Positions 5,533 through 40,672 of a DNA stretch of 47,383 bases are shown one piece after another. The notes beneath the pieces were generated by a model. That model saw only the letters and a list, made by a program, of their open reading frames with translations. It had not been told where the DNA came from and did no database searches. Source of the DNA: a virus; IMG/VR virus record IMGVR_UViG_3300027509_000005; one strand, given 5' to 3'. The translations under genes were made by a program, and so were the position numbers. How positions within the stretch are numbered: the first letter of the stretch is position 1; the number at the start of each line of letters is the position of its first letter.

Positions 5533-5628
5533 CTAGCTATAAATAATATACATACCAAAAGCCCATATAATAAAAGCTGATAAAGGCATTAAAAGGATCA
5601 TTTCTATAAATTCTTTTTTGTTTTCCAT
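5533..5628 (-). CDS. Possible 31-aa single-TM peptide
   Basis: My translation is MENKKEFIEMILLMPLSAFIIWAFGMYIIYS. It fills the gap between neighbouring genes. There is no independent support. Confidence 0.3.
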   Translation of the reverse strand: MENKKEFIEMILLMPLSAFIIWAFGMYIIYS

Positions 5629-21586: not shown

Positions 21587-21590
21587 AGTT

Positions 21591-23696: not shown

Positions 23697-23727
23697 ATAT
23701 TTTCATTATTACTCTTATCGTCTAAGA

Positions 23728-24507: not shown

Positions 24508-24508
24508 A

Positions 24509-24524
24509 TATTTACATTATACCA
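24509..24524 (-). promoter_or_regulatory. Late-type promoter box TGGTATAATGTAAATA
   Basis: This 16-mer is identical to 31756..31771. It occupies the 20-nt gap before the ATG at 24507. Confidence 0.6.
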
Positions 24525-24527
24525 TGA

Positions 24528-27113: not shown

Positions 27114-27174
27114 ATATTTGTTTAAGATAATTTATCTTATAAGAGAGTGGGTTTTCCACTCCCTTAAAGGTAAA

Positions 27175-27345
27175 CTATTTACCTGCATTACTAGGGTGTA
27201 GCTTCTTTCCTAGTTTCTTGTGCATCTTTTCGATTGCTTGTGCGCCTTTTTCCAGTTCTGCCACTGTTGGCTTTTCTGAAAGTTTAGCGAAAAGCATAGT
27301 CTTATATGTGATTTCGTAGAGACTCCCTACCTTTTTTGCTTCCAT
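27175..27345 (-). CDS. Small hypothetical protein, 56 aa
   Basis: My translation is MEAKKVGSLYEITYKTMLFAKLSEKPTVAELEKGAQAIEKMHKKLGKKLHPSNAGK. TAATG overlap with the upstream small ORF. Confidence 0.45.
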   Translation of the reverse strand: MEAKKVGSLYEITYKTMLFAKLSEKPTVAELEKGAQAIEKMHKKLGKKLHPSNAGK

Positions 27346-27515
27346 TATTTTTTCTTATAACTTTTTACAAAATCCTCAGCCATCTTCTTTGCGTCAGCTT
27401 TCTTAATATCTACCTCCTCAGACTTTCCCCAAAAGAAACGAGCTATTATTTCTTTCTGGTTTGTTATAAGGAAGTGTTTTGCGTCTTTGTCTTTTGTGAT
27501 TTCCTCAGTTTTCAT
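27345..27515 (-). CDS. Small hypothetical protein, 56 aa
   Basis: My translation is MKTEEITKDKDAKHFLITNQKEIIARFFWGKSEEVDIKKADAKKMAEDFVKSYKKK. Together with the next ORF it fills a 418-bp gap. Confidence 0.45.
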   Translation of the reverse strand: MKTEEITKDKDAKHFLITNQKEIIARFFWGKSEEVDIKKADAKKMAEDFVKSYKKK

Positions 27516-27531
27516 AATTCTTTTAAAACAT

Positions 27532-28584
27532 TTAATTAGGTACGTTGTCAGTTACGATAAGTGTTGAGGTGGAGTTGTCAGTAACTTTATTTGCTGTATT
27601 TGAGTTGATATTCAGGTATGTATTGTTTGCTGGAGCGTCAACCTGAATATATGTACCATAAGCACGTGTAGACGTAGAGCTTTCTGTGAATACTGGCTTA
27701 TTGATAACCACGTTCTCGCCATCGTTGACATGAATACCTATCGCTGGTCGATTTCCTGCACCATAAGTAGGACTGTTCATGTGGTGATATGTGTCGTTAA
27801 TAGAGATACCACTTGAAGCACTGCCACCAGTACCATCTCCAATTAAGATGTCTCCACCACCATTACTTTCAAAGTAAAGTGAGTTTAACTGCTTTCCCAA
27901 TCCCCACTCAAATTGCATCCCAACTCCTTCGCAAACTGATGCGTTAAGACCATTTCCGATTAAGCCAGCTCCAGCGTCAAAGAAGAATCCTCTAGCACCA
28001 GCATTGATAACGGAAACATGCGAAAGATTCAGTTGATGATTAGCGAATGTTGAAGCAACAAAGCCATCGCCCTCAACATTTCTCACCTCAACATTTTTCC
28101 ACAGAGAACTCCATGACCATTCCAGATATACGCCTCTTGCGCCTCCAAGTATAAACACATTTTCCACTCGTGATTGTCGTGCAAATCCTTTCAAATGAAG
28201 TGCGTCTCCAGACTGAGGGTTACCAACGATGTGCATGTCTTTAATAGCACAGTTTCTCAATACTGTAGCCTCTACCTTGTTTACTGTAAATGTGTGTTCT
28301 CCTGTAGTACTTTCATTTTCGATGATCGTTGCTATACCCTCGCCCTCAATGATCGTTCCATCAACTAAAAGTTCATTCTCTTTACTTTTTTTGTAATGAC
28401 CATGATTGACATGAACAATACCGCCATTAGGCAAAGCATCGAGGGCCTCTTTTATCTGAACATCTGCTGTAGTTGATCCTGCTGGCACGATAAATTCAGC
28501 ATTGGAGTAACCGACAGTCTTATGTCCTGACATCGCTCCGATTACTCCTGCATCATCGTAGAGTGAAATTAAATCTGGTGGCAT
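27532..28584 (-). CDS. Right-handed beta-helix (pectate-lyase-3-like) tailspike / depolymerase
   Basis: ADVQIKEALDALPNGGIVHVNHGHYK matches the Pectate_lyase_3 N-motif. Periodic G/N/V-rich coils follow (NVxxxGG..G). Confidence 0.6.
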   Translation of the reverse strand: MPPDLISLYDDAGVIGAMSGHKTVGYSNAEFIVPAGSTTADVQIKEALDALPNGGIVHVNHGHYKKSKENELLVDGTIIEGEGIATIIENESTTGEHTFTVNKVEATVLRNCAIKDMHIVGNPQSGDALHLKGFARQSRVENVFILGGARGVYLEWSWSSLWKNVEVRNVEGDGFVASTFANHQLNLSHVSVINAGARGFFFDAGAGLIGNGLNASVCEGVGMQFEWGLGKQLNSLYFESNGGGDILIGDGTGGSASSGISINDTYHHMNSPTYGAGNRPAIGIHVNDGENVVINKPVFTESSTSTRAYGTYIQVDAPANNTYLNINSNTANKVTDNSTSTLIVTDNVPN

Positions 28585-28603
28585 AACTTTGATTTGTTTT
28601 TGA

Positions 28604-31600
28604 TTACATCTGTCTCCATATAGCAGCTACTGCATCGTAGTAAGTCATACGTCCAGTTGCGCTGTTATAGTACTGTTCTCCACCTACGAGCGGAGTACCA
28701 TTTGCTGCGACTGTTGGGTTTGCTGTTAGATTAAGAAGTCCTGCGTGGAAGCTGTGTACACCATTGTAAGTCACTGCGTAGGCGTTGCTTCTTGCTGCTG
28801 GCCCTGTAAGACCATTACCAATGATAAATGCGTAGTCATCGTTTGCTGCTGCTGTTAGCACTGCACCCTGTTGGATGTTATGCAAACCAATTGCTGTCTG
28901 TGCTCGACAACCTGTAATTGTTCCATGTCCCATTGCTACAGAAGTGATACCTTCTGTGAGAGTTCTAAAACCCTGTGCGAATGAGATATCTGCGTCTGCT
29001 ACTGATTCTTGACCAATAGCGGTTGAGTTTACGTTGTTTGCTCTTGTGTCTCCACCTGTTGCAAATGCGCTCTGTGCTGTTGCTTCTGATCGTTGACCAG
29101 ATGTGAATGAGCTTTGTCCTGAAGCAATTGTAAATGATCCAAATGAGCTTGCTGCTGATCCTGTAGCTTGCGTTGTGACGTTAGCTGACAGTGATGAGAA
29201 ACCACTTGCTATTGTATTTGATCCTGTTGCAAATGCCTGACTGTTAGATGCAAGGTTGTTAGCTCCCTGTGTTGCTGAAGCAAATGCAGTAGCGTTACCA
29301 CCTGAGCCTAAGTTGGATGAGATGAATCCACTCGCTGTATTTCCATTACCTGTTGAAAAGCTGTATGTGCCTGAAGCTACGTTTGCACCATTGAATGATG
29401 CTGATCGTGCGCCTGAAGCAAGTCCTCCAAGTCCATGTACAAGCGACTGATTTCCTGTAGCTGTACCATTAAATGTACTGATCGCTACTCGGCTGTGTCG
29501 TGTTGTAATTCCATTTACTGCTGTTTCGTCTGAGTCAGCGTGAGAAACTCCTATAACTGTTGGGCCAACTGATCCACCATGTAGGTTGTTTACATGCAGT
29601 GTCCTGTGAAGAATCTGTGGTGTACACCCAAATAGTGCAGTACGTCCATCTTCATCTTTAATGATTGTTCCTTCACACCAAGGCTCTAAGTTTCCATTTC
29701 CATCATCGTGAGTAATTGTCCTTTCTCCGTCTACACCTGTTGATACAGTAATAGATGAAGTTGATCCAACACCTCCCTGAATGTCACCCTGAATATCAGC
29801 GATTATAGTATTGAACTCTGTTTTTTCTACAACTCGTGGACAATCTACAATTTCTGGGTCTACAAGCTCTACTCCCTCTGAATCTACTGGTACTGGGGGT
29901 ACACTTGAGTCTACGTTTCCATCACAGTCTAGTACATATCGGTATGCGCCTTTTAGTGTTTGTGGCTTTGTACCTGAACAAACTACCTCTGTCCAGTTGA
30001 TAAATACATCGTTTCCATTTGTTTCAGCGTTGTTTGAGATAAATGCGATCTCGACTGTTCCTGTAGTATCTGCAATCCATGAAACAGTGTATACATTTCC
30101 ATCGTCAGTATTGAGTCCTGCACCGATTGGGCCTGTATTATCTACAATCACGCCATTTACTACCATTCCAATGTCAGCGAGTGATACGTTATTTGCGTCA
30201 TTGTAATCTGGTGTGTGTGTATCTTTGATCTTTAGCTTCAATGAGTAACACTTGCCTTCCTCAACGTCAATATCTCGGTAAAGCATCCTTTGTCCTGATG
30301 CGCCTGTTGATGGTTGTAGGTTAAATGCTGCATATCCACTAGCAAAAGGTGCGTATTCTATCCAGTTACCATGAATGTCTGGCTGTGCGCCACCATTTGA
30401 TACTGGTACGAATCCTGCTGGCATAACCATGTAAATACCCTCTGCATAAAGCTGTGCAAAGTAAGGTGCGCCAGAAGTGGCTAGTGTAAAGTCTGTATTC
30501 CATGAACCAAGTCCGTCTGGTGCAAGTGTTCCTGCTGTCTGATCGCTTGGTGTTTCAAAATCTTCTCGGAAAAGAGTAACTTCATTTGTACAATCACAGA
30601 TTTCTTCCTCACCAACGTAACAGAACTCGCCATGAATAGCGTGATCTGGACATGCTGGGCTTTCTGTATTAGTTACAACACCATTTGAGTCTTGATTCCA
30701 CACATAATCTGGGTTTCCTGTTGTTCCATCGCCTACAAGTATTAGGATTCCAGGATCAACAATGTTATTTGTTGTGATATATGTGCTTACTTCCGCTTCT
30801 GTAGGATTTTCTGGGTCTGCAAAAGCACTAGCTGGGATTTCAGTAGTAATAGGGCAACATTTATCAGGACTTTCTGTGTTGATGATAACGCCATTGTGAT
30901 CTACATACCATGTGTAGTCTGGATCTTCTGCTGTTCCGTCTCCGATGTAGTAAAGGTATGTGTTTGTAACGCTGTTATTTGCTACATAGGTAGCTACACC
31001 GCTATCTGGATCACCTGCTGTAGTCAAATCCGCGTCAGTAACTGGTGCAACTTCTACACAGCAATCCTTTTTAACTGTAGTAAGGCTCCAAGATGTTCCG
31101 TCCCATTCGTAAAATACGATACAGTCTCTATAGATCTGATCGTGAGTTGATCCTGCTGCTGCTACATTGGCTGGGGGATCTACTGGTGTTGCTGGAACTG
31201 GGTCTGGACAATTCTCTTCTACTGTACTTCCACTAACTGTTCGACAACACAAAAGATCTGTAAGGTCTACAGGGTGTGTTGTGCCATTACTATCTGTAAT
31301 GGTCAAAATAAGTGTATCTGGGTCAAAATCGAAGTTTGTTACTTCAACATCAACAGTGTAATCGAGTTCTTTTACGCTACATCCGCCATTTGCGTCTATA
31401 ACGAGTACTTTATCACCATTAATTGCTGCTGTAGTACCTTCTGGAACTCCTGCCATCATTTCACAAATAGATGGGAGTGTGATCTTTTCACATGTACCAT
31501 CTTGCTTGCAAACGACAAATTCGTCTGTTGGGTCGAATGTTCCGTCACCAATCATCTTATAAGCAGCACAAAGCTCCTCTGGTGTTAGTGGTGCGCCTCC

Positions 31601-31708
31601 TAGATCGCACATCTTGCAATCTCGTCCGTCTACTGTTAGTTTCCAACAGCCATCTTTCCAGACTGCTTCAACTAAACGCTTCCCTATTCCTTGACTTGTT
31701 CTTGACAT
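28604..31708 (-). CDS. Long tail fiber with CBM-like jelly-roll region and YadA/Hep_Hag-like S-x-A-x-G repeat head (first ATG)
   Basis: Repeats ..ASGARSASFNGANVASGTYSFSTGNGNTASGF..SQAFATGSNTIASGF..SAFATGGDTRANNVNSTAIGQ.. occur at roughly nt 28890..29620. The track start at 31774 is a TTG lying inside a promoter box. Confidence 0.6.
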   Translation of the reverse strand: MSRTSQGIGKRLVEAVWKDGCWKLTVDGRDCKMCDLGGAPLTPEELCAAYKMIGDGTFDPTDEFVVCKQDGTCEKITLPSICEMMAGVPEGTTAAINGDKVLVIDANGGCSVKELDYTVDVEVTNFDFDPDTLILTITDSNGTTHPVDLTDLLCCRTVSGSTVEENCPDPVPATPVDPPANVAAAGSTHDQIYRDCIVFYEWDGTSWSLTTVKKDCCVEVAPVTDADLTTAGDPDSGVATYVANNSVTNTYLYYIGDGTAEDPDYTWYVDHNGVIINTESPDKCCPITTEIPASAFADPENPTEAEVSTYITTNNIVDPGILILVGDGTTGNPDYVWNQDSNGVVTNTESPACPDHAIHGEFCYVGEEEICDCTNEVTLFREDFETPSDQTAGTLAPDGLGSWNTDFTLATSGAPYFAQLYAEGIYMVMPAGFVPVSNGGAQPDIHGNWIEYAPFASGYAAFNLQPSTGASGQRMLYRDIDVEEGKCYSLKLKIKDTHTPDYNDANNVSLADIGMVVNGVIVDNTGPIGAGLNTDDGNVYTVSWIADTTGTVEIAFISNNAETNGNDVFINWTEVVCSGTKPQTLKGAYRYVLDCDGNVDSSVPPVPVDSEGVELVDPEIVDCPRVVEKTEFNTIIADIQGDIQGGVGSTSSITVSTGVDGERTITHDDGNGNLEPWCEGTIIKDEDGRTALFGCTPQILHRTLHVNNLHGGSVGPTVIGVSHADSDETAVNGITTRHSRVAISTFNGTATGNQSLVHGLGGLASGARSASFNGANVASGTYSFSTGNGNTASGFISSNLGSGGNATAFASATQGANNLASNSQAFATGSNTIASGFSSLSANVTTQATGSAASSFGSFTIASGQSSFTSGQRSEATAQSAFATGGDTRANNVNSTAIGQESVADADISFAQGFRTLTEGITSVAMGHGTITGCRAQTAIGLHNIQQGAVLTAAANDDYAFIIGNGLTGPAARSNAYAVTYNGVHSFHAGLLNLTANPTVAANGTPLVGGEQYYNSATGRMTYYDAVAAIWRQM

Positions 31709-31755
31709 ATAATTTTTATTATACGCAGAACGCTCTATAATTCGCCCAAATGAAT

Positions 31756-31771
31756 TATTTACATTATACCA
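31756..31771 (-). promoter_or_regulatory. Late-type promoter box TGGTATAATGTAAATA
   Basis: This 16-mer is identical to 24509..24524 and lies upstream of the long fiber gene. A second TATAAT at 31718..31723 lies 9 nt before the ATG. Confidence 0.6.
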
Positions 31772-31783
31772 CAATCACGATTT

Positions 31784-32296
31784 TTAATTTAAGAAATCAT
31801 TTAGCACATTATATGCTTCTGTGATTTTCTTGAACTCTTTTGTGGTGTGATCTTTATGCTGTGTTTGTAATCTCCTAAAATAGTATCTGACATCTGCGAG
31901 ATTGGCTGATAATGGGAGATTTAGTATCTCGTAGTATTCTGCCTTCTCTTGGATGTTCTTAGACTTGATGAGAGGCGTGTGCTTGCCCTCTAAGGCTTGT
32001 CTGACGTTATTGTGACCTGTTACGAGTCTATCGTCTGGAAAAGCCAGTAAAGGGATCTGTACGTTGCCAAATAGCTTTACCATCTCTTGATAGTTTAGTG
32101 CCATTTGCTTATTTCTCTTACACGATCCATTCTTACAGTCATTTTCAGGGTTGATCTTGCAAGCGTGACACGTTACTGCTGTCTTGGTTGCATTTACGAT
32201 CCTAAAAGGCTTTGATTGCTGCCTAATAAGTGACATGAGCTTCTTATTTGAGCAACATGCCGCACAGTATAGGGTTAAAACTTCTACTTTTGCCAT
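31784..32296 (-). CDS. Glutaredoxin/thioredoxin-fold CxxC protein fused to a C-terminal J-like domain (HKD)
   Basis: N-terminus VEVLTLYCAACCS..FRIV .. VQIPLLAFPDDRLVTGHNNVRQAL gives the Grx topology: CxxC, cis-Pro, G motif. An inserted Cys4 segment (CHAC..C..C) is present. C-terminus YYEILNLPLSANLADVRYYFRRLQTQHKDHTTKEFKKITEAYNVLND covers J-domain helices I-III. Confidence 0.65.
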   Translation of the reverse strand: MAKVEVLTLYCAACCSNKKLMSLIRQQSKPFRIVNATKTAVTCHACKINPENDCKNGSCKRNKQMALNYQEMVKLFGNVQIPLLAFPDDRLVTGHNNVRQALEGKHTPLIKSKNIQEKAEYYEILNLPLSANLADVRYYFRRLQTQHKDHTTKEFKKITEAYNVLNDFLN

Positions 32297-32305
32297 ATTT
32301 ATACT

Positions 32306-35300
32306 TTATTTTATATCCGTATCAGAACCAGCCTTAGATTTCTCTAAATCATTTCTAATCAATCCCTCACGTCCATCAACAATCTGCTCTAAGACATCTC
32401 GTTTCTCTTTGTCAGATGGGTTTTTCTTGATATTGAACTTTGTAATGATTTCTTCTACCTTGTTGAAGTCTTTAAAGCTCTGGTTAGCGTCTTTATTATC
32501 TCCAGTAAGGTATCTTCTAATAGATTGGATATCATCTGATGATAGTTCCTCTGCGAATTGCTTTACTTTCTTTTGTGTTACACCTGCTGACTTTGTTACG
32601 AGACTGTCGAATCCGCCTTTAGCGTCTTTGCCGAATTGTACGAAGTCTGCGCTGCCTTTTGTTGTTTTAGATGTTGCTGCGTTTTTTAGCTGACCAAAAG
32701 CACCCTTTATTCTACTTTTTCTCTCAGAATCTTTGCCAAAGACAAGTTTTTCAATGGCTTTTTCATAACGCAAGTCCGAGTTTAGCACCTTATTAGCTAA
32801 ACTAGAAACAACCTTACCTAGTAGCCCTCCAGTCGGATCACCGATGCCCATAGAAAATGCTGCATCCATAGTGCTATTCTTTATACCCTGCTCAAAAAGC
32901 GATTTCTGACTATCATTGCCAAACATCTTTGTAGCAAGCCATGCGAAGGTAGCATCATCTTGTATATCGTAACCTGTAAGGTTTTTTAATGACTCTGCGT
33001 TTGTCAGTGCTTGACCATTTCTGTCACTGTACAGTCTATTCATTAAGAAATTAGGATTATTTCTCGACTTATTCAAAATCGCAATTTCGTCCGCAGCGTT
33101 AGAATAGTCATCCAATAATTTAGCCTGATCTTTTGGTATACTTTCACGATTTACTTTTGCAAGATCGGCTCTGATACTTTTTGCAATGCCATCAATATTT
33201 CCAGATACCTCCTGAGAACTTTTACCAAAATCGGCTTTACTACCAACTCTAGATATTACATCAACTAATGATTCTAGTGTACCTGTAGTAGTTGCAAACT
33301 CAATATCATCAAAAAACTCACCAATCATTTTTCTCTCGGAGTCGCTATATACACCCCTTCTTCCATCAATATCTTCAACTTTGATTTTGCCATCTTGATC
33401 TTTACTCACTCTAACACCTTGTGACTCTAATTTGCTATTTAGTCCATTGATAACAGAAGCAAGTTTATTCTTATCAACTGTAGTTCCTCCATATTCTTTT
33501 CTAAATTTACCAATTTCTGATCCTATGTCATTTAGAATATCCTGAGCCATGTCAACAGTAGCGATATACTTGTCAGCAGCTACTTGAGGTGCTGCTCTCA
33601 TTGTATCGCTATTATTTCTATTGATTGCTGCTGATACATAGAAGTTATAAGCGTCAGGCTTATTCTTGATACGTTCTTTTATGGATCGATCTATTTTAGG
33701 GTCTCCAAGTATTCTTTGTCTGATTCCATCAGCAGCTCTTGATTCTGTAAGGAGATTCATACCAGCAGTTATCCTACCAACCGCCCCAGGCTTATCCTTT
33801 TCAATTCCCTCAAGTACTAACTCTTCTATCTCTCTTTCGATTTGATCTTTTGCACTGTCTGTATTCAATAAGGTGCTGTTTGGCTTTACATCACTAAACC
33901 TGGAATTGTTTTCTCTATCATTGAAACCAAGACTGCTATCGCTTGAGCCTGTCTCTCTTTTATCTGTAATAACATCAACTATTTCATCTCCTGTTTTTGG
34001 CAATGTTACAACTTCATCAGCATTTTTTGTTGCGCTTCTTATACCGCTATCCACACCCTCTTGAATTGTTTGGGTTGCTGCCTTAAAAGCTGTTCTTGCT
34101 GCACCACCAGTTAAGACTGATATGATACCACCACCTATATTTGCTAAAGCCTCAAAGTTCTCTGCATTTACCTTGTTGTCAGTGCTACTATTTTTCCATG
34201 TACTATAAGTCTCTATTCCACGACTAGCAGCCTGTAATCCAGCAGCCACAGCAGGATTCTTCTTTATTTCTTCCCCAAGTTCTGCAAATTCTTTATCAGA
34301 TGTTGCAAGGTCTGCTGTTTCTGCTACTGCTGCCTCTCCTAGATCGAATATAAAACCAAGCACATCACCTGTTACTTGTGTACCCGTATCACCTCTTAAT
34401 TGTTCGCCTGAATCTAGTCTCTGAAATGACTCTGCAATGCTACCTCGTCTTTTTGTGTATGCCTCTGATACCCTTGAAAAGAGTGTATCTTCACCCTCTG
34501 TCCTTGAGAAGTCTTGACCAAAACCTGGAATTGGCAAACCTCCAACGATAGCACCATTTTCTGGTGTGTTTTCTCCTAATCCCTGTGATTGTGTCTCAGA
34601 AAGTCCTATATTAAAGCCAGATTCTGCATTATCTACTTTTTTTTTACCAGTTTCAGGATCATAGCCTTGTGACTCGATATAAGCCCTAGCTTTAGGGTTG
34701 TTTGGGTTTGTGAGTGCTAATTGTAGCTTTCTGTCTGTGATTGGCTCGTCCCCTGTAGATGAATCTTGCACAGAGCCGCTCAAACCTTGCACTTTAGCAA
34801 GTCCGCTTTCTAATGCATCCTTTACTCTTTGCACCTCAGCTATAAATGCCTCCTCTGATATTTTTGGATCTGCAAGTATAGTCTCTGCATCTGCCAATGC
34901 TTTCTGCTCCGCATCAGTAATAGTACCTTGTCCAGCTAGTTTTTCACGAGCGTTTACGATCAAAGTTGATACAATTTGAGTTCTTTTAGCATTAAAATCA
35001 GCGGCTTCAGTTCCTGATACAAAATCTGTTGCTCCTCCTCCGAATGGCAATATTGATCTCACTGACTTCCCAAAACCTGCTCCGACTGCTGCCTTGAACC
35101 CTCTATTGTTAGTAATATCATCTTGTAATAATTTGACTTTCTCTATATCACCAGTGAGTAAGTCGACTGTAGAGAGCCTATCATCTTCTTTTAGCTTCCT
35201 TTCTTCTCGAACCTCAAATTGCTTATCTGGGCTTAAACCTGCTAATGGGTCAACCTCTCCAGTTCCACCTCCGTATCTGTTCTGTAATTCAAAGAACTTT

Positions 35301-35518
35301 TCCATCTTATCAACATTTGCATCTGTAATTTCAATTCCATTTATTTCACCATAAACATTACTGGAATCAGTAAAATTACTTTCAACATAAGCATTTACCT
35401 CACTCGGTTGTAGATTGAGTTTATACAAACCAGCTTTATACTTATTCTTATCATAGCCTTTCTGTAAAGCTATTGATGTGAAATCATTTGCTATTTGTAA
35501 TTGTTTATCTGATGCCAT
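32306..35518 (-). CDS. Large Cys-free internal virion / ejection protein or tape-measure-like protein (1070 aa from first ATG)
   Basis: Zero Cys. G/S/D/E/K-rich with long predicted helical stretches. The ATG lies 4 nt after the upstream stop (track TTG at 35530). Confidence 0.5.
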   Translation of the reverse strand: MASDKQLQIANDFTSIALQKGYDKNKYKAGLYKLNLQPSEVNAYVESNFTDSSNVYGEINGIEITDANVDKMEKFFELQNRYGGGTGEVDPLAGLSPDKQFEVREERKLKEDDRLSTVDLLTGDIEKVKLLQDDITNNRGFKAAVGAGFGKSVRSILPFGGGATDFVSGTEAADFNAKRTQIVSTLIVNAREKLAGQGTITDAEQKALADAETILADPKISEEAFIAEVQRVKDALESGLAKVQGLSGSVQDSSTGDEPITDRKLQLALTNPNNPKARAYIESQGYDPETGKKKVDNAESGFNIGLSETQSQGLGENTPENGAIVGGLPIPGFGQDFSRTEGEDTLFSRVSEAYTKRRGSIAESFQRLDSGEQLRGDTGTQVTGDVLGFIFDLGEAAVAETADLATSDKEFAELGEEIKKNPAVAAGLQAASRGIETYSTWKNSSTDNKVNAENFEALANIGGGIISVLTGGAARTAFKAATQTIQEGVDSGIRSATKNADEVVTLPKTGDEIVDVITDKRETGSSDSSLGFNDRENNSRFSDVKPNSTLLNTDSAKDQIEREIEELVLEGIEKDKPGAVGRITAGMNLLTESRAADGIRQRILGDPKIDRSIKERIKNKPDAYNFYVSAAINRNNSDTMRAAPQVAADKYIATVDMAQDILNDIGSEIGKFRKEYGGTTVDKNKLASVINGLNSKLESQGVRVSKDQDGKIKVEDIDGRRGVYSDSERKMIGEFFDDIEFATTTGTLESLVDVISRVGSKADFGKSSQEVSGNIDGIAKSIRADLAKVNRESIPKDQAKLLDDYSNAADEIAILNKSRNNPNFLMNRLYSDRNGQALTNAESLKNLTGYDIQDDATFAWLATKMFGNDSQKSLFEQGIKNSTMDAAFSMGIGDPTGGLLGKVVSSLANKVLNSDLRYEKAIEKLVFGKDSERKSRIKGAFGQLKNAATSKTTKGSADFVQFGKDAKGGFDSLVTKSAGVTQKKVKQFAEELSSDDIQSIRRYLTGDNKDANQSFKDFNKVEEIITKFNIKKNPSDKEKRDVLEQIVDGREGLIRNDLEKSKAGSDTDIK

Positions 35519-35522
35519 AGTT

Positions 35523-36392
35523 TTATCCAAAATTTATATCATACTCCTCTTCATCTGTGAGCCTTGGTCTTCCAGCAGCCTCCGCAGCGTTATTGATATC
35601 TGCTATAAGTTGGTCGTAATCCTCTCCTGGTAAAGCTAAGTCTTTTGCGTCTCTCAATGCCTTAATAGACTTCAGGTAAAGATCAACAGGATCTTCTTGC
35701 AATAATGTAGCCTGTATCTGATTGTTAGGGTTTTCTTCGTTTGATATTTCAGCACCATCCTCATCAGTGAAACTTCCGATTGATGTTGGCTTTTGTCCAT
35801 CAGTCACATCACCATCTAGGCTATTTATGAGATCCTCTGCACTTCCAATATTTGTTCCGTCTGTTATTTCAAGTTTTTTGTTTGAAATTTCAAGGTTTCT
35901 CTCGGCAGTCCTCCCAAGAATATCATCAATGCTACCAGAAAGATCACTAACACCTGCCTCTACAGCCAACCCCTTTGCATTTACCAGAGTCGCTGCGTCA
36001 GTATCAGCTAGTGTTTGCTCACGCAGTAAGTCTGTTGCATCTTTCTTTTCTCTATCACTTACAACATCTATAGCTCTATTCGCTTGTCCTATCAGTAATT
36101 CCCTATCTGCTCGCAGTACATCACTAAGTTCTCTCTCAAATCCTGCGATCTGATTTATAGAAAAGTTATTATTTCCTGTAATAAACTGGGTTTTCTCTTG
36201 TGAGTTCCTATCAAAAGCAGCTATTTCATTTGCTGCAAGTCGTGTAGCCTCTGCTGTATTTCTCAAGTCGTTGTTCTGTGCAATGTTATTGAAGTTTTTT
36301 GTAGCTGCGAAAACATCAAAATTCTGAACAGGTCGCTGTGCAGAAGCATCGAAGTTAAAACTCTTATCTAATCCTAGTGCTTGTTCAAACAT
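35523..36392 (-). CDS. Cys-free internal virion-like protein, 289 aa
   Basis: Zero Cys, N/D/E/A-rich. Adjacent to the 1070-aa protein. Confidence 0.5.
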   Translation of the reverse strand: MFEQALGLDKSFNFDASAQRPVQNFDVFAATKNFNNIAQNNDLRNTAEATRLAANEIAAFDRNSQEKTQFITGNNNFSINQIAGFERELSDVLRADRELLIGQANRAIDVVSDREKKDATDLLREQTLADTDAATLVNAKGLAVEAGVSDLSGSIDDILGRTAERNLEISNKKLEITDGTNIGSAEDLINSLDGDVTDGQKPTSIGSFTDEDGAEISNEENPNNQIQATLLQEDPVDLYLKSIKALRDAKDLALPGEDYDQLIADINNAAEAAGRPRLTDEEEYDINFG

Positions 36393-36396
36393 ATAT

Positions 36397-36876
36397 TTAT
36401 GGGAGTGGTGTTATTGATCCTGCAAGCCTTAGTTCTTCCAACACATTACAAAGATCATAACGGAATCCATTACATTCTAGTATTATACCATTATTTGAGA
36501 TTGTCATTATTTCCACGCCATTTTCATCACATATAGAAAAAACCCAATCGCCTGTATTGTTGATGTCTTGTGGTCGCTCATGACGTACCCAAAAGAAGGG
36601 TTTACCATCTCGATTTACTCTTCCTACGCCAAAATCCCTTTCTATGTTTATTTTCCTGTATTTTCCATGAAGCATACCGACACGCTTCTGCAATTCTGGA
36701 TCAGGCTTGAATATCTGATCTCCATAAGCGTCATGCTCCCTCTGTAGCTTCTTCTCGCTGTCTGAGAGCTGTCTTGACTGGTCTATGGTCGGTTTACCCC
36801 TATGAGTATGCAAAACGCCGTCCTGACCATGTAGGACGCTCTTGTGATCTACCTGTGATTCTAAATCATTAGCCAT
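36397..36876 (-). CDS. Virion-module hypothetical protein, 159 aa
   Basis: TAATG overlap with the upstream gene. Confidence 0.55.
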   Translation of the reverse strand: MANDLESQVDHKSVLHGQDGVLHTHRGKPTIDQSRQLSDSEKKLQREHDAYGDQIFKPDPELQKRVGMLHGKYRKINIERDFGVGRVNRDGKPFFWVRHERPQDINNTGDWVFSICDENGVEIMTISNNGIILECNGFRYDLCNVLEELRLAGSITPLP

Positions 36877-38369
36877 TATGTTGTGTATTGTATGAATGAC
36901 CGCATAACTGGGGTATCAATGCCTAGTAGCCTCTTTTCATCTATGGAATTTTCATGCTTTCCGTTTCTGGTTTCTGTAATGAGCTTACCGCCTGTTGATG
37001 GGTTTAGCGTGATTCTGGTTTGCACATGAGTAGGCGTACATTCGTCAGGACAGATCAGATCTCCTTCGACTTCATAGATACTCAGTCCATCTTTTCTGTG
37101 AAATCCTGTAGAACTATCTCTATTCTCACCAAAACCATCTTTATTGTCGTATTTGTTCCACCCTGTATTGTTTACATTGGTAAAACAGTCAAAGTCGTTT
37201 CGTGAGCGTGTAAGCCAGTAGTAAAGCTGTATGTTTCGTGGAGACATGCCTTGAATGGGTAAATTAAACTCAATCGCAGGGAACTCAATGAATCCCTGTG
37301 TAAACTTACTCTTATCAAGTCTCTCTACCCACGCATTGCCTTTACCATCGCTAAATGAAGCTAGTAGTAGCTCTCCAGATGAATCAAAGTAGTATGGCGT
37401 GTCAAATGAAACACTATATGTACTCCATGTAGCCCTTAAATTAGGCGTGTATGGGCTTGCTAGTGATTCTAGCTTTACCTTCTCGCCTCGTGCGCTCTCA
37501 GCCCTCTGAAACAGAACTAACTCGTCTGACTCATCCTGCTTAATGATTGTCATAAGCCTTCCATCATATCCAAAAGTAGGCAAGTAGTCATGCGTTGTTT
37601 GATTGTACGAACTATTTATATATGTTCGTATTCGTGGTAATTGCTTACGAAAGAAGTCAGGGCCACCTGTTACCTGATTTATACGACCACAGTCATCACC
37701 ATCAATAGCGTATATAAGGTTAGAGTTGTGAGATCGAAGATACATGTGCGTACCTCGTCCATTTCTTGCTGTACCATAGCTTACTTCATCACCGAATGGG
37801 ATAATTGCGCTAATCGTATGATCGTCTCTCGTTTCATGCTGATTTAAAGATACATTATATCCCTCGTCAACTCTACCGAGATATTGACCATGACCAAAGT
37901 ATAAGAAACCAGCAGCAGCAGCCATTGGGTGTTCTTCTTGCTGTGTAACTTCCATCCTCTTAAAAACCTTCTTGTTTCCATTCTGCCACTCGAAGAAACC
38001 TAGCTGACAGCAACCAATAAAGTAAATTCTGTTTCTAAAGACATGTGCGCCAGTATGACCACCGCCATCTTCACATGCTGGATTGGTAAAGCAGAGATCC
38101 CATGTTCCATCTCTTTTTCGTACCCATATCTTACCTGTGATCTTTGAAAAAGCATAGGATACCTCTGTACCTGTCACAACGATATATGCTGGCTCGTTTG
38201 GTGCATTACCTTTTGTTTCTTCAACCATCGCATAAGGGCAACTAGCAAATCCTTGTTCTTCAACAATATTTGCAAATACCCAAGGGCAATAATCTTCTAT
38301 AATTCTACTTTTTGTAATACCACGATCAGCGTGTGACCTTCTGACTAATTGTTTGGTGACGCTCGCCAT
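36876..38369 (-). CDS. Virion structural protein, 497 aa (possible tail hub/nozzle)
   Basis: Call rests on position and size only. Confidence 0.45.
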   Translation of the reverse strand: MASVTKQLVRRSHADRGITKSRIIEDYCPWVFANIVEEQGFASCPYAMVEETKGNAPNEPAYIVVTGTEVSYAFSKITGKIWVRKRDGTWDLCFTNPACEDGGGHTGAHVFRNRIYFIGCCQLGFFEWQNGNKKVFKRMEVTQQEEHPMAAAAGFLYFGHGQYLGRVDEGYNVSLNQHETRDDHTISAIIPFGDEVSYGTARNGRGTHMYLRSHNSNLIYAIDGDDCGRINQVTGGPDFFRKQLPRIRTYINSSYNQTTHDYLPTFGYDGRLMTIIKQDESDELVLFQRAESARGEKVKLESLASPYTPNLRATWSTYSVSFDTPYYFDSSGELLLASFSDGKGNAWVERLDKSKFTQGFIEFPAIEFNLPIQGMSPRNIQLYYWLTRSRNDFDCFTNVNNTGWNKYDNKDGFGENRDSSTGFHRKDGLSIYEVEGDLICPDECTPTHVQTRITLNPSTGGKLITETRNGKHENSIDEKRLLGIDTPVMRSFIQYTT

Positions 38370-38378
38370 ATTGTAAGT

Positions 38379-39335
38379 TTAAGGTTGTGGTACCCACCAT
38401 GGATAATCGTTATTCTCTGCTTCTTCTCGGACTCCATAATCGTCATAACATGCTGGCTTTGCTGGCTTTGACCCTTCATCTATTGAAGCACATAGCCCAG
38501 GCTTACAGATATACATGTAATAACTAACTGCCTTTGATGGCTGCATGTTGTTTGTAGGCTGTGTATCGGCCTCTGCACCTTTGATAAGATCCTGCTCAAC
38601 ACTGAAACATCCGTCTGGCGTTTCTGCTGTAGTGTACTGGACATAATCTGTACCCTCTACTGCTGTATCTGAAACACATCCGCCATCAATATCAAGAATA
38701 AAGTGATAGTCATATCCGTCAGGAACTTCTAGTATTGGATCTTCATTAGGATCTAACTGTTCATCGCCTCGTGGAACCCATATAGCCTTTGTAGGTACTT
38801 TAAAGCTCAAATCAAACTGATCTGTAATGTCACAAACCCTGCTTTCTTCACATTGCATCGTATGCTTTGCCTCACCTGTACACATGCCAACGCTTGTAAG
38901 TCCATGACCATAGTAGTCTGTAGGATCCGCCATAACTGGAACTTGACCTCGCATATCGCACATTGTATAGCACTCTACGAGATCACCTGATTTGTTGTAG
39001 TAATTGATTTTTCGTCCGTCCATCAAAGCCCAACACTTATTACAGCATGGAGCGTCACTAGAAGTAATTGCATTGATTTTTACATCACCAAAGCACCAGT
39101 CAGTAAATTTATTGACCATATCTTCCATAAAGAAACGGAAAGGGACATATCCACAGTTATCTCCTGGAACGAAACCAAGTAGCCACATGTTATTAGGGAT
39201 TTCTCCATGCTCTTGGACATCCCATCTATCAAAGATTGCTGCGTCTACTGCTGCTGGACACATATTGCCTCTGCAACTGTCATCTCCACAGAGACTTCCG
39301 CAACATCCATCTGAGTAGTCTAATTCTCCTGCCAT
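38379..39335 (-). CDS. Phage tail-collar-domain fiber protein, extremely Cys-rich
   Basis: ..CWALMDGRKIN..YTMCDMRGQVP..GMCTGEAKHTM resembles the Collar-domain pattern (W..CDG..l ... F.LPDlRGr.P ... G..GE..HtL). About 21 Cys in 318 aa by manual count. Confidence 0.5.
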   Translation of the reverse strand: MAGELDYSDGCCGSLCGDDSCRGNMCPAAVDAAIFDRWDVQEHGEIPNNMWLLGFVPGDNCGYVPFRFFMEDMVNKFTDWCFGDVKINAITSSDAPCCNKCWALMDGRKINYYNKSGDLVECYTMCDMRGQVPVMADPTDYYGHGLTSVGMCTGEAKHTMQCEESRVCDITDQFDLSFKVPTKAIWVPRGDEQLDPNEDPILEVPDGYDYHFILDIDGGCVSDTAVEGTDYVQYTTAETPDGCFSVEQDLIKGAEADTQPTNNMQPSKAVSYYMYICKPGLCASIDEGSKPAKPACYDDYGVREEAENNDYPWWVPQP

Positions 39336-39339
39336 ATAT

Positions 39340-39531
39340 TTATGTTATTGATTGATCTGATCCACTAAAGGTAGCGCTGTATGGACGAAATGCGTTATAT
39401 GGATTATACGGAACAACATCTTTATAGATAATTCTTTCCTGTACAACTGTTTTTGCTTCTTTCAACATTTCAATTTCTTTTTTCAGTAATTCTATCTCTT
39501 TTTCATACAATTCTTTTTCTTTATCGCTCAT
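39340..39531 (-). CDS. Small coiled-coil protein, 63 aa
   Basis: KEKELYEKEIELLKKEIEMLKE heptad-like segment. Confidence 0.5.
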   Translation of the reverse strand: MSDKEKELYEKEIELLKKEIEMLKEAKTVVQERIIYKDVVPYNPYNAFRPYSATFSGSDQSIT

Positions 39532-39535
39532 AATC

Positions 39536-39754
39536 TTAATATATTTTTCTTATTGGTGTTCGCACCTGTATCATTACTCGCTCTCCACAGTCATCAAAAT
39601 ATGATATTGGTTGACCGCAGATTGTCAGTACAGTTTTCATGTAAGTAGGTTTCTGTCTATCGTTATCTGGTAGTGATCCTTGTGGCTTTCTATTTACCAG
39701 AGAAGATGTGCATAATCCTTTACATTTACTGTTTTTACAACATTTATCACTCAT
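39536..39754 (-). CDS. Small Cys-rich protein (start MSDKCCK..)
   Basis: The ATG at 39754 lies 4 nt after the upstream stop. The longer track ORF would overlap the upstream gene by 59 nt. Confidence 0.5.
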   Translation of the reverse strand: MSDKCCKNSKCKGLCTSSLVNRKPQGSLPDNDRQKPTYMKTVLTICGQPISYFDDCGERVMIQVRTPIRKIY

Positions 39755-39758
39755 ATTT

Positions 39759-40622: not shown

Positions 40623-40672
40623 AATACTTTCCTTATACTACCCACCCTAGAAAGAGTGAGTAAGTAAGGAGA

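What the first reader, a model, noticed from the sequence alone, without database searches (positions are those of the whole stretch)
31784..32296. Glutaredoxin-like CxxC domain fused to a J-like domain (HKD instead of HPD) inside the virion module
The 170-aa ORF begins with a Grx/NrdH-type layout: beta1-CxxC (LTLYCAACCS), a cis-Pro strand (VQIPLL) and a G motif (VTGHN). This layout is interrupted by a Cys4 insert (CHACK..C..C). The ORF ends with J-domain helices I-III (YYEILNLPLSANLADVRYYFRRLQTQHKDHTTKEFKKITEAYNVLND). The invariant HPD tripeptide reads HKD.

The gene sits between the Cys-free internal proteins and the Cys-rich fibers, where one would expect an assembly factor. Thioredoxin-fold plus J-domain architecture is known from eukaryotic ERdj5. 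Poxviruses carry their own cytoplasmic disulfide pathway, including the Grx-like G4L. Phage J-proteins are rare; from memory, Rki of coliphage RB43 is one. I know of no phage Grx-J fusion.

Hypothesis: this is a phage-encoded redox co-chaperone that couples host Hsp70 to oxidative folding or isomerisation of the hyper-Cys virion proteins.
Basis: partly seen in the sequence, partly recalled or inferred. Interest (0 to 1): 0.72.

Follow-up and report, generated by a model that had tools for sequence, protein, structure and literature searches.

The report
Phage glutaredoxin-like protein with degenerate J-domain
A small late gene of an uncultured, very cysteine-rich phage fuses a glutaredoxin-like CxxC domain (carrying a four-cysteine insert) to a truncated J-like domain that lacks the HPD motif needed to switch on Hsp70, so it is probably a dedicated thiol/disulfide helper for virion proteins rather than a classical Hsp70 co-chaperone.

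Summary
ORF 31784..32296 (minus strand, 170 aa) is real. One homolog exists among 1.84 billion protein representatives (P0002, 40% identity), in the same four-gene order.

- **C-terminal domain.** Residues ~115-170 form a J-domain fold: Pfam DnaJ 27-31 bits, and every top Foldseek hit is a J-domain. It stops after helix III, its II-III region is 6-8 residues short, and the HPD position reads HKD here and NKD in the homolog.
- **N-terminal domain.** HMMER finds nothing. Profile-profile comparison with 55 real Grx/NrdH sequences aligns it end-to-end once the Cys4 insert is removed (probability 89%, E 2e-6, score 37 against shuffle maxima of 21-23). C11/C14 fall on the active-site CxxC and P82 on the cis-Pro.
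- **Context.** Putative outer virion proteins are 4-6% Cys, against 0.5-1% in T7. Cys-free internal proteins are ordinary, because T7 gp15 and gp16 also have none. No RNR or Erv-type oxidase was detected.

Most likely this is a late-expressed thiol-disulfide oxidoreductase or redox chaperone for Cys-rich virion proteins. Its J-like domain probably serves as a docking module, not an Hsp70 activator. The architecture is well supported; the function is inferred. It is a new variant of known domain types.

The parts
31784..32296 (-). Whole ORF (170 aa plus stop): Grx-like domain with Cys4 insert, linker, J-like domain
   Evidence: identical protein P0001 on contigs of about 47.2-47.4 kb, two of them shown from JGI samples; homolog P0002
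32189..32296 (-). Residues 1-36: beta1, CxxC at the start of alpha1, then beta2 of the thioredoxin/glutaredoxin-like fold
   Evidence: hhalign and MAFFT put C11/C14 on the Grx active site and K18 on an invariant Lys; mixed-MSA model has E4-9, H15-26, E31-36
32252..32266 (-). CAACC (C11, C14, C15): putative redox-active CxxC followed by a third conserved Cys; the homolog has CGHCC (PDI-type dipeptide)
   Evidence: read directly from the sequence; conserved in P0002; C11 and C14 invariant across 27 aligned sequences
32099..32188 (-). Residues 37-66: insert with four conserved Cys (C43-x2-C46-x7-C54-x4-C59; CxxC-x7-CxxC in the homolog), a probable zinc knuckle between beta2 and alpha2
   Evidence: clean insertion relative to 25 Grx/NrdH sequences; removing it raises hhalign from 64% to 89% with full coverage; lowest pLDDT of the model, about 59-66. 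Metal binding is inferred only
31982..32098 (-). Residues 67-105: alpha2, cis-Pro strand (IPLL, P82 at nt 32051-32053), beta4, VTGHN, alpha3
   Evidence: strongest hhalign segment; P82 aligns with the Grx cis-Pro and is invariant in 27 sequences; faint GST_N_2 hit for the same segment of P0002
31955..31981 (-). Residues 106-114: interdomain linker
   Evidence: poorly conserved between P0001 and P0002; no helix of 4 or more residues in the model
31787..31954 (-). Residues 115-170: truncated J-like domain (helices I, II, III; no helix IV)
   Evidence: Pfam DnaJ 27.2 and 30.7 bits; PDB phmmer; Foldseek hits; H115-124, H133-146, H153-169
31850..31858 (-). HKD (residues 147-149) at the position of the J-domain HPD tripeptide; NKD in the homolog
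   Evidence: sequence; alignment; alignment to J-domains is ambiguous about the exact register
32306..35530 (-). Upstream neighbour, 1074 aa, 0 Cys: internal virion / ejection-like protein. Its stop is 9 nt before the ORF start
   Evidence: phrog_2534 'released from the phage upon host infection', E 6.5e-9; Cys count; positional counterpart of 890 aa with 0 Cys in L003
35523..36392 (-). 289-aa Cys-free protein, conserved syntenic marker
   Evidence: 57% identity over 167 aa to the 279-aa protein of L003, E 1e-55; 0 Cys in both
28604..31774 (-). Downstream neighbour, Cys-rich fiber-like protein (1056 aa from TTG at 31774; 1034 aa from the start used by the JGI gene call, ATG at about 31708); 27 Cys, 3 CC pairs
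   Evidence: N-terminus 51% identical (E 4e-11) to the gene downstream of P0002 in L003

Best explanation
The gene encodes a two-domain cytoplasmic protein made late, together with the virion proteins.

Shown:
- The N-terminal domain is a remote member of the glutaredoxin/NrdH-type thioredoxin fold.
- It carries a conserved CxxC at the start of helix alpha1 (CAAC here, CGHC in the homolog), a conserved cis-Pro, and a third Cys (C15) next to the CxxC.
- A 30-residue insert after beta2 carries four conserved Cys.
- The C-terminal domain is a three-helix J-like domain without HPD and without helix IV.

Inferred:
- The insert is a zinc knuckle.
- The CxxC domain performs thiol-disulfide exchange (reduction, isomerisation or holding) on the unusually Cys-rich outer virion proteins. 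The first candidate is the fiber-like protein encoded immediately downstream. This would keep their cysteines correctly paired or unpaired while they fold and assemble in the reducing cytoplasm. Final oxidation would occur after lysis.
- The degenerate J-like domain is a protein-protein docking module, for a virion or assembly partner or for non-activating contact with DnaK or DnaJ. It is not a stimulator of the Hsp70 ATPase.
For: Architecture:
- J fold.
- Grx-like fold: hhalign probability 89%, E 2.4e-6, score 37.2, against shuffle nulls with maxima of 21-23.
- MAFFT on its own gives the same register, with C11, C14, K18 and P82 invariant over 27 sequences.
- An AlphaFold model with the mixed MSA gives beta1-alpha1-beta2-[insert]-alpha2-beta3-beta4-alpha3 at mean pLDDT 83.
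- The helices of the unbiased single-sequence model fall within the alpha1, alpha2 and alpha3 helices of the mixed-MSA model.

Conservation:
- All seven Cys, P82 and G94-H95-N96 are invariant between two proteins that share only 39-40% identity.

Context:
- The four-gene order is conserved in two phages: Cys-free 289/279 aa, Cys-free 1074/890 aa, this gene, then the Cys-rich fiber-like gene.
- The gap to the upstream gene is 9 nt here and 2 nt in L003. No promoter or terminator motif was found on the coding strand.
- Putative outer virion proteins have 4-6% Cys against 0.5-1% in T7.
- No RNR was detected that could be the usual client of a phage Grx/NrdH.

Precedent:
- Vaccinia G4L is a late glutaredoxin required for virion disulfides (PMC9282662).

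Against Hsp70 activation:
- HKD/NKD replaces HPD, whose integrity is required (PMC3486835; PMC13012618).
Against: - No biochemical evidence exists. Redox activity, zinc binding and the client are all inferred.
- The Grx similarity is below HMMER detection. The best hhalign value needed a post-hoc removal of the insert, although this was controlled by shuffles that allow the same choice.
- The confident 3D model used Grx sequences in its MSA, so it tests compatibility and is not independent evidence.
- hhalign on the intact domain prefers to place the Grx CxxC on C43/C46, so the identity of the catalytic pair is not fully settled.
- Seven conserved Cys plus H95 could all be metal ligands.
- The classical glutathione-binding (GG..D) and NrdH (WSGFRP) motifs are absent.
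- The family has only two members, so co-occurrence with Cys-rich virions rests on n = 2, and one of these is a 4.5-kb fragment.
- The virion role of the Cys-rich neighbours rests on weak PHROG hits and on gene order.
Confidence: 0.42

Rival explanations
1. One reading: a true redox co-chaperone. The J-like domain recruits and activates host DnaK/Hsp70, while the Grx-like domain oxidises or isomerises cysteines of virion proteins (an ERdj5-like mechanism).
For: - J fold with a conserved basic helix II (VR-x-x-F-[RK]-R-L).
- Conserved Asp at the D35 position, and F/L at the F47 position.
- ERdj5 shows that the J-plus-thioredoxin combination works with an Hsp70 (PMC7563561).
- In some systems even an HPD/AAA variant does not fully abolish stimulation (PMC13012618).
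Against: - Pro is replaced by Lys in both members, and His by Asn in one.
- An H-to-Q change alone abolishes functional J-Hsp70 interaction (PMC3486835).
- P34 is needed to orient H33 and D35 (PMC13012618).
- Helix IV is missing and the loop/helix III region is 6-8 residues shorter.
- No oxidase that could feed disulfides was detected.
Confidence: 0.12
2. A packaged, ejected redox effector. The protein is itself an internal virion component, delivered with the Cys-free ejection proteins. It acts at entry, by reducing virion or host disulfides or by modulating host redox or chaperone systems.
For: - The gene directly follows, and is tightly coupled to, the gene for a protein matching a PHROG of proteins released on infection.
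- The same holds in L003, where the gap is 2 nt.
- Vaccinia packages its Grx G4L and other redox proteins into lateral bodies for delivery into the host (PMC9282662).
Against: - Proteins that must pass through the tail are Cys-free here and in T7. This protein has 7 conserved Cys and probably a folded zinc site.
- There are no proteomic data.
- Gene adjacency alone does not show packaging.
Confidence: 0.15
3. A non-catalytic, metal-binding scaffold. The cysteines (possibly with H95) bind one or two zinc ions or an Fe-S cluster. The thioredoxin-like fold is an inactivated scaffold, and the protein is an assembly adaptor or regulator.
For: - Seven invariant Cys arranged as CxxCC, CxxC and Cx2-4C, plus an invariant GHN.
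- hhalign on the intact domain is ambiguous about which CxxC matches the Grx site.
- The CxxC dipeptide differs between the two members (AA vs GH).
- Grx glutathione-binding motifs are missing.
- Inactivated thioredoxin/glutaredoxin proteins exist in viruses (annotation seen in BFVD).
Against: - The CxxC sits exactly at the catalytic position, together with the conserved cis-Pro that completes a thioredoxin active site.
- The four insert cysteines alone suffice for a zinc knuckle, leaving C11/C14 free.
Confidence: 0.15
4. An ordinary phage glutaredoxin/NrdH acting as hydrogen donor for ribonucleotide reductase (like T4 NrdC), which happens to carry a C-terminal helical tail.
For: Most phage Grx/NrdH proteins have this role. 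The T4 NrdC-type sequence also has an insertion after beta2.
Against: - No RNR or other nucleotide-metabolism partner was found in the whole 47-kb genome.
- The gene lies in the structural block, not the replication block.
- The NrdH and Grx signature motifs are absent.
Confidence: 0.03

Closest known systems
Glutaredoxin / NrdH-type small thioredoxin-fold redoxins (Pfam PF00462), including T4 NrdC
   Same: - Same order of secondary-structure elements.
- CxxC at the N-terminus of alpha1, an invariant Lys four residues later, and a cis-Pro before beta3.
- T4 NrdC-type proteins also have an insertion after beta2.
   Different: - Below HMMER detection and more remote from Grx than NrdH is (score 32-37 against 56).
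- CAAC/CGHC followed by an extra Cys, instead of CPYC or CVQC.
- A 30-residue Cys4 insert.
- VTGHN instead of the GG..D (glutathione) or WSGFRP (NrdH) motifs.
- Fused to a J-like domain, with no RNR in the genome.
J-like (HPD-less) domains, e.g. mitochondrial Pam16/Tim16 and 'type IV' J-like proteins
   Same: J-domain helical hairpin without a functional HPD. Such domains are known to act as binding or regulatory modules rather than Hsp70 activators (papers listed).
   Different: - No detectable specific sequence relationship to these.
- Even shorter: no helix IV and a shortened II-III region.
- Located at the C-terminus of a redoxin, in a phage.
ERdj5 / DNAJC10 (eukaryotic ER)
   Same: Combines a J-type domain with CxxC thioredoxin-fold domain(s) in one polypeptide. 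It acts on the disulfides of client proteins (PMC7563561; PDB 5ayk and 5ayl appear among the J-domain structural hits).
   Different: - ERdj5 has an N-terminal J-domain that associates with BiP (that it carries a functional HPD is from my own knowledge), followed by several thioredoxin domains.
- It is about 790 aa and resides in the ER.
- Here the order is reversed, there is a single Grx-like domain, HPD is absent, and the setting is the cytoplasm of a phage host.
Poxvirus cytoplasmic disulfide pathway (E10R, then A2.5L, then G4L glutaredoxin)
   Same: A virus-encoded, late-expressed Grx-type protein linked to virion morphogenesis in a reducing cytoplasm (PMC9282662).
   Different: - No Erv/ALR oxidase or A2.5L-like partner was detected here.
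- No significant sequence similarity to G4L was found.
- G4L has no J-like domain or Cys4 insert.
Rki of phage RB43 and other phage J-domain proteins
   Same: Phage-encoded protein with a J-type domain (PMC3486835; many further examples in BFVD).
   Different: - Rki has an intact HPD and functionally interacts with DnaK.
- It has no redoxin domain.
- It acts on sigma-32 rather than sitting in a structural module.

Membership tests
J-domain (Pfam PF00226 DnaJ) | Helices I-III, with the antiparallel helix II/III hairpin | tested here: met
   Pfam 27.2 bits on the full protein (cutoff 27.8) and 30.7 bits on the isolated domain. All top 50 Foldseek PDB hits of the unbiased model are J-domains, typically at rmsd 2-3 A over about 53 columns.
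J-domain (Pfam PF00226 DnaJ) | Invariant His-Pro-Asp tripeptide in the helix II-III loop | tested here: not met
   HKD in P0001 and NKD in P0002. Some alignments even place the canonical HPD inside a 6-8 residue deletion.
J-domain (Pfam PF00226 DnaJ) | Helix IV completing the four-helix domain | tested here: not met
   The protein ends 1-3 residues after helix III (H153-169 of 170 aa). The Pfam match covers profile positions 1-55 of 63.
J-domain (Pfam PF00226 DnaJ) | Basic face of helix II (Y25/K26-type residues) | tested here: met
   V-R-x-x-F-[RK]-R-L is conserved in both members. The importance of Y25, K26 and F47 is taken from PMC13012618.
J-domain (Pfam PF00226 DnaJ) | Stimulates the Hsp70 ATPase | not testable with these tools
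   Needs a biochemical or J-domain swap assay.
Glutaredoxin/NrdH (Pfam PF00462; thioredoxin fold) | beta1-alpha1-beta2-alpha2-beta3-beta4-alpha3 fold, recognisable by profile comparison | tested here: met
   hhalign against 55 real family members gives probability 64% intact and 89% (E 2.4e-6, 64-68 columns) without the insert, far above three shuffle nulls. The mixed-MSA AlphaFold model shows this topology at pLDDT 79-90 in the core. That model is a compatibility test only.
Glutaredoxin/NrdH (Pfam PF00462; thioredoxin fold) | Passes the family's own HMM threshold | tested here: not met
   No PF00462 hit at E up to 10 for either member. The only related hit is a faint GST_N_2 match for P0002 (E 0.045-0.057).
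Glutaredoxin/NrdH (Pfam PF00462; thioredoxin fold) | CxxC at the N-terminus of alpha1 and a cis-Pro before beta3 | tested here: met
   C11, C14 and P82 are invariant in a 27-sequence MAFFT alignment with real Grx/NrdH sequences and in hhalign. Caveat: hhalign on the intact domain matches C43/C46 instead.
Glutaredoxin/NrdH (Pfam PF00462; thioredoxin fold) | Subfamily signatures: glutathione-binding GG..D (Grx) or WSGFRP (NrdH) | tested here: not met
   The corresponding segment reads VTGHNN in P0001 and VYGHND in P0002.
Glutaredoxin/NrdH (Pfam PF00462; thioredoxin fold) | Thiol-disulfide oxidoreductase activity | not testable with these tools
   Needs enzymology.
ERdj5/DNAJC10-type J-plus-thioredoxin oxidoreductases | Functional HPD J-domain at the N-terminus, followed by several CxxC thioredoxin domains | tested here: not met
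   Here the domain order is reversed, there is a single Grx-like domain, and HPD is absent. ERdj5 properties are from PMC7563561 and my own knowledge.
Virus-encoded cytoplasmic disulfide pathway (poxvirus E10R/A2.5L/G4L type) | An Erv1/ALR-family sulfhydryl oxidase partner encoded by the same virus | tested here: not met
   Pfam scans of the other 64 ORFs of 50 aa or more found no Erv/ALR, thioredoxin or Dsb family. The genome is very divergent, so a cryptic partner cannot be excluded.
Virus-encoded cytoplasmic disulfide pathway (poxvirus E10R/A2.5L/G4L type) | A Grx-type protein co-expressed with virion proteins that need disulfides | tested here: inconclusive
   The position in the structural block and the 4-6% Cys of virion proteins fit. 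Expression timing and the existence of virion disulfides are unknown.
Cys4 zinc knuckle / zinc ribbon | Two closely spaced Cys pairs conserved in homologs | tested here: met
   C43-x2-C46-x7-C54-x4-C59 in P0001 and CxxC-x7-CxxC in P0002, with all four Cys invariant. Metal binding itself cannot be tested here.

The most novel reading that the evidence does not exclude
This is the core of a tailed-phage system for managing virion cysteines. A dedicated Grx-like oxidoreductase, tethered by a repurposed HPD-less J-like domain to the assembling particle or to the host chaperone machinery, would allow a phage to build a virion whose outer proteins carry 4-6% Cys and become disulfide-locked. That would be a bacteriophage counterpart of the poxvirus/NCLDV cytoplasmic disulfide pathways, built from different parts.
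Probability: 0.3. Interest if true: 0.8.

Novelty: new variant of a known kind. Interest (0 to 1): 0.58.

Why it matters
Virus-encoded machinery for forming or editing disulfides in a reducing cytoplasm is well established for poxviruses and other large eukaryotic viruses. I know of no such system in tailed phages, whose glutaredoxins are normally tied to ribonucleotide reductase.

Three features stand out together:
- Outer virion proteins that are 5-10 times richer in Cys than those of T7.
- A Grx-like protein placed between the internal-protein and fiber genes.
- No RNR in the genome.

Together they would make a testable case for redox-assisted virion assembly in bacteria. The case would also add an example of a J-domain that has lost HPD and been reused as a fusion module, and of a zinc-knuckle insertion in a glutaredoxin fold. 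Practically, such a factor could be relevant for producing disulfide-rich phage proteins (fibers, depolymerases) in heterologous hosts. The claim is limited by a family of only two sequences and by the lack of any experimental data.

Tried and rejected
**Searches that found nothing or only the known members**
- A word-indexed search of 5.8 billion proteins found only the query itself with the single protein. With the two-sequence profile it found only the two known members.
- Exhaustive phmmer of residues 1-118 against 1.84 billion representatives gave one true homolog. Two long repeat proteins (P0003, P0004; 6-7 weak stretches each) were rejected as spurious.
- tblastn and megablast against 50,697 phage records gave no match for the protein, for a 12-kb stretch (28000-40000), for the portal-like protein or for the 487-aa protein.
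- The search for related loci found no relatives. Queries were the family profile, the conserved 289-aa neighbour, the portal-like protein and the 406-aa capsid candidate, in IMG/VR; the first two were also run against JGI metagenome contigs. The proposed co-occurrence test with Cys-rich capsids could therefore not go beyond n = 2.
- HMMER searches of the N-domain against Pfam, PDB, PHROGs and NCBIfam gave nothing significant. The phytochrome and Cas12m matches at E 0.2-1 were treated as noise.

**Structure work of limited value**
- The single-sequence AlphaFold model was uninformative for the N-domain (pLDDT below 50).
- Foldseek with the mixed-MSA model gave GST-like full-length alignments at rmsd 12-15 A. 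These only reflect 'thioredoxin domain plus helices' and were not used.
- BFVD hits covering about 170 columns (for example A0A218MMT5, 177 aa) have rmsd above 15 A. Their sequences could not be retrieved, so they are not counted as fusions.

**Readings considered and rejected**
- The alternative register, with C43/C46 as the Grx active site, was judged less likely. It leaves no room for alpha1 and beta2, and it scores lower than the insert-deleted alignment.
- The RNR-partner role was rejected for lack of any RNR.
- The other small Cys-rich ORFs of the genome look like ordinary CxxC zinc-ribbon proteins, not redox partners.
Full report
**1. The observation**

The ORF exists exactly as described: 31784..32296 on the minus strand, ATG start, 170 aa. 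I checked the quoted motifs in the DNA. CAACC is residues 11-15 (nt 32252-32266) and HKD is residues 147-149 (nt 31850-31858).

The window is essentially a complete phage genome of about 47.4 kb. The identical protein (P0001) lies on contigs of 47.2-47.4 kb. The two shown, from separate JGI samples, start at different points of the genome. Almost all genes are on the minus strand. The ORF starts 9 nt after the stop of the upstream gene. No promoter-like or terminator-like motif is found on its strand nearby.

**2. Is it a real, conserved gene?**

The protein is nearly an orphan.
- The word-indexed search of 5.8 billion proteins found only the query itself.
- Phage GenBank records, IMG/VR and JGI metagenome contigs gave nothing.
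- An exhaustive phmmer of residues 1-118 against 1.84 billion representatives found one true homolog. This is P0002: 161 aa, 40% identity, E 2e-10, from a 4.5-kb contig of SRR25760725 (L003).

P0002 has the same two-domain layout. Invariant between the two are all seven Cys (C11, C14, C15, C43, C46, C54, C59), P82, G94-H95-N96, the block TLYCxxCCSNK, the block NYxxMVK, and much of the C-terminal helices.

Gene order is conserved over four genes:
- a 289/279-aa protein, 57% identical over its first 167 residues (E 1e-55);
- a large protein of 1074/890 aa, which is a positional counterpart only;
- this gene;
- a Cys-rich protein whose N-termini are 51% identical (E 4e-11).

**3. The C-terminal domain**

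Pfam DnaJ (PF00226) matches residues 120-167. The score is 27.2 bits on the full protein (curated cutoff 27.8) and 30.7 bits on the isolated domain. The P0002 domain scores 20-23 bits. PDB J-domains match at E down to 1e-4.

In the unbiased single-sequence AlphaFold model only this part is confident (pLDDT 75-85; helices 115-124, 133-146, 153-169). All 50 best Foldseek PDB hits are J-domains, typically about 53 columns at rmsd 2-3 A. So the J fold (helices I-III) is established.

It is nevertheless a degenerate J domain:
- (a) The protein ends right after helix III, so helix IV is absent.
- (b) The helix II-III connection and the start of helix III are 6-8 residues shorter than canonical. HMMER and MAFFT disagree on whether HKD aligns with HPD or whether HPD falls inside the deletion.
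- (c) The tripeptide is HKD in P0001 and NKD in P0002.

The literature is clear that HPD is needed:
- An H-to-Q change alone abolishes functional J-Hsp70 interaction (PMC3486835).
- P34 breaks helix II so that H33 and D35 point the same way, towards L391 and R167 of Hsp70 (PMC13012618).
- The same paper notes rare systems in which HPD/AAA variants retain some activity, so a residual function cannot be excluded.

The basic helix II face (VR..F[RK]RL), the Asp, and the F/L at the F47 position are conserved. Some binding to an Hsp70 or to another J-type partner therefore remains possible. HPD-less 'J-like' domains are a known class (Pam16 and others).

**4. The N-terminal domain**

HMMER-level searches find nothing significant in Pfam, PDB, PHROGs or NCBIfam. 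The only exception is a faint GST_N_2 hit for P0002 (E 0.045-0.057).

I therefore built a profile of 55 real Grx1/Grx3/NrdH/NrdC sequences and compared it with the two-sequence N-domain profile.
- *Intact domain.* Probability is 64%, E 6e-5. The alpha2/cis-Pro/beta4/alpha3 half aligns in the correct register, but the Grx CPYC is placed on the second CxxC, C43/C46.
- *Insert removed.* Without residues 37-66 the alignment becomes end-to-end: 64-68 columns, probability 87-89%, E 2-4e-6, score 36-37. C11/C14 fall on the active site and P82 on the cis-Pro.
- *Controls.* Because the deletion was chosen post hoc, I ran three nulls. None approaches 37.

| Null | mean | sd | max |
|---|---|---|---|
| Column shuffles | 10.7 | 2.3 | 20.8 |
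| Shuffles with the CxxC fixed | 13.2 | 2.9 | 22.6 |
| Full shuffles, best of all 30-column deletions | 13.7 | 2.8 | 21.2 |

- *Independent alignment.* MAFFT of the two proteins with 25 Grx/NrdH sequences gives the same register on its own. C11, C14, K18 and P82 are invariant, and the Cys4 segment is a clean insertion after beta2. The T4 NrdC type also has a small insertion at that site.
- *Structure model.* With that MSA AlphaFold gives mean pLDDT 83 and pTM 0.69. The topology is E4-9, H15-26, E31-36, insert (pLDDT about 59-66), H57-76, E83-85, E90-93, H95-102. This works like threading. It is a compatibility test, not independent proof.
- *Subfamily.* The domain is closer to classical Grx (score 32) than to the low-diversity NrdH subset (score 17). 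It is more remote from Grx than NrdH is (score 56). The Grx glutathione motif (GG..D) and the NrdH motif (WSGFRP) are both replaced by V[TY]GHN.

My conclusion is that this is a remote Grx-like thioredoxin fold with a plausible active site (CAAC, or CGHC in the homolog, which is the PDI-type dipeptide) and an extra adjacent Cys. It is interrupted by CxxC-x7-Cx(2-4)C, most simply read as a zinc knuckle. That reading is an inference.

**5. Context**

PHROG hits place the gene in a structural block arranged like that of T7:
- a portal/adaptor-like 731-aa protein (phrog_332);
- Cys-free 228- and 107-aa proteins;
- proteins of 406, 287 (phrog_2125, virion structural), 318 and 497 aa;
- 159-, 289- and 1074-aa proteins (the last matching phrog_2534, 'released from the phage upon host infection');
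- this gene;
- then proteins of 1056, 350, 861 (with a GH5 cellulase-like domain), 259 and 701 aa.

Cys content is strikingly bimodal.

| Group | Proteins | Cys |
|---|---|---|
| Low | 1074, 289, 228 and 107 aa | 0 |
| Low | 731 aa (portal-like), 350 aa | 0.6-0.7% |
| High | 406, 287, 318, 861, 259 and 701 aa | 4.2-6.3% |
| Intermediate | 1056 aa | 2.6% |

In T7 the virion proteins have 0-1% Cys (gp13 2.2%), and gp15 and gp16 have none. The Cys-free internal proteins are therefore ordinary. They must unfold to pass through the tail. The Cys-rich outer proteins are unusual, at 5-10 times the T7 level.

In L003 the two upstream proteins are likewise Cys-free, and the first 46 residues of the downstream gene carry 4 Cys.

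Pfam scans of the other ORFs of 50 aa or more found HNH, DUF5648, DNA methylase, YqaJ, GP3_package, holin, RusA, PAP2, M23 and others. They found no RNR, no Erv/ALR oxidase, no other redoxin and no chaperone.

**6. Mechanism**

*Shown.* A Grx-like CxxC domain with a Cys4 insert, fused to an HPD-less three-helix J-like domain, encoded in the late structural block of a Cys-rich phage, with the gene order conserved in a second phage.

*Inferred.* The CxxC domain carries out thiol-disulfide exchange on Cys-rich virion proteins. The most obvious client is the fiber-like protein encoded next. No oxidase is evident and the cytoplasm is reducing, so a reductase, isomerase or holdase role during assembly is more plausible than de novo oxidation. 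Oxidation would occur after release. The J-like domain most likely docks the enzyme to a partner. Canonical Hsp70 activation is unlikely.

I give this overall model about 0.42. Rivals:
- a true Hsp70-coupled co-chaperone, 0.12;
- a packaged and ejected redox effector, by analogy with vaccinia G4L in lateral bodies (PMC9282662), 0.15;
- a non-catalytic metal-binding scaffold, 0.15;
- an RNR hydrogen donor, 0.03.

**7. Comparison with known systems and novelty**

The closest families are Grx/NrdH (fold and active-site geometry met; HMM threshold and subfamily motifs not met) and the J-domain (fold met; HPD and helix IV not met).

ERdj5 combines a J-domain with thioredoxin domains, but in the opposite order and with a J-domain that works with BiP (PMC7563561). 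Poxvirus G4L is the closest functional analogy, but its oxidase partners have no detectable counterpart here.

BFVD and PDB structure searches returned Grx-only or J-only proteins and no convincing fusion. PHROGs and phage GenBank records have no relative.

I therefore rate this as a new variant of known kinds: known domains in a new architecture and genomic context. The functional story is interesting but unproven. Interest is 0.58.

Noticed in passing
window 20123-31774 and 36876-41893 (minus strand): The putative virion proteins are bimodal in Cys. The proteins of 406, 287, 318, 861, 259 and 701 aa have 4.2-6.3% Cys, with several CC dipeptides. The portal-like, 350-, 228-, 107-, 289- and 1074-aa proteins have 0-0.7%. 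T7 virion proteins processed the same way have 0-1% (gp13 2.2%). Whether these Cys form disulfides or bind metals is unknown.
   Followed up: partly
window 24528-27113 (minus strand): The 861-aa Cys-rich protein (43 Cys) has a GH5 cellulase-like domain at residues 482-714 (Pfam PF00150, 27.4 bits, cutoff 23.5). It may be a tail-associated polysaccharide depolymerase.
   Followed up: no
whole window (1-47383): The window equals a complete phage genome of about 47.4 kb. The genome was recovered as contigs with different start points in two JGI samples (3300009073, 3300005654). It has no detectable relatives among 50,697 phage records or in IMG/VR for the portal-like, 487-aa or capsid-candidate proteins. 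This is a very sparsely sampled lineage.
   Followed up: partly
window, upstream of the 12 minus-strand gene starts examined (e.g. 32297-32321, 36393-36417): The sequences before these start codons are A/T-rich (...ATAAATAT-ATG). Eleven of the 12 have no Shine-Dalgarno motif (the 1074-aa gene has GAGGAG about 14 nt upstream). Genome GC is 39%. From general knowledge this pattern is typical of Bacteroidota hosts. The host was not determined.
   Followed up: no
window 12272-12523, 8686-8868, 5256-5558, 1482-1967 (minus strand): There are several small Cys-rich ORFs, for example one of 83 aa with 10 Cys and three CxxC motifs. They look like zinc-ribbon proteins. None resembles a redox partner, and their function is unknown.
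   Followed up: partly
window 522-947 (minus strand) and elsewhere: An HNH endonuclease (PF01844) is encoded at 522-947. The genome also encodes GP3_package (small terminase), a YqaJ recombinase, RusA, an N6/N4 DNA methylase (43116-44024), a strong DUF5648 hit (E 3.5e-37) and a PAP2-family hit. The ORFs carrying these hits were not mapped individually, apart from the HNH and the methylase.
   Followed up: no
L003 1-4542 (SRR25760725 contig): The only relative of the locus is a 4.5-kb fragment. Its 279-aa protein is 57% identical to the window's 289-aa protein. The large protein between it and the Grx-J gene has diverged beyond BLASTP significance (E 0.15-0.23) but keeps its position and its total lack of Cys.
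   Followed up: yes
P0003, P0004 (database proteins, not in the window): Two long repeat proteins (1108 and 861 aa, DUF11-like tandem repeats) reached E 7e-7 and 6e-6 against the N-domain, through 6-7 summed weak stretches. They were judged to be artefacts of repeat summation.
   Followed up: partly
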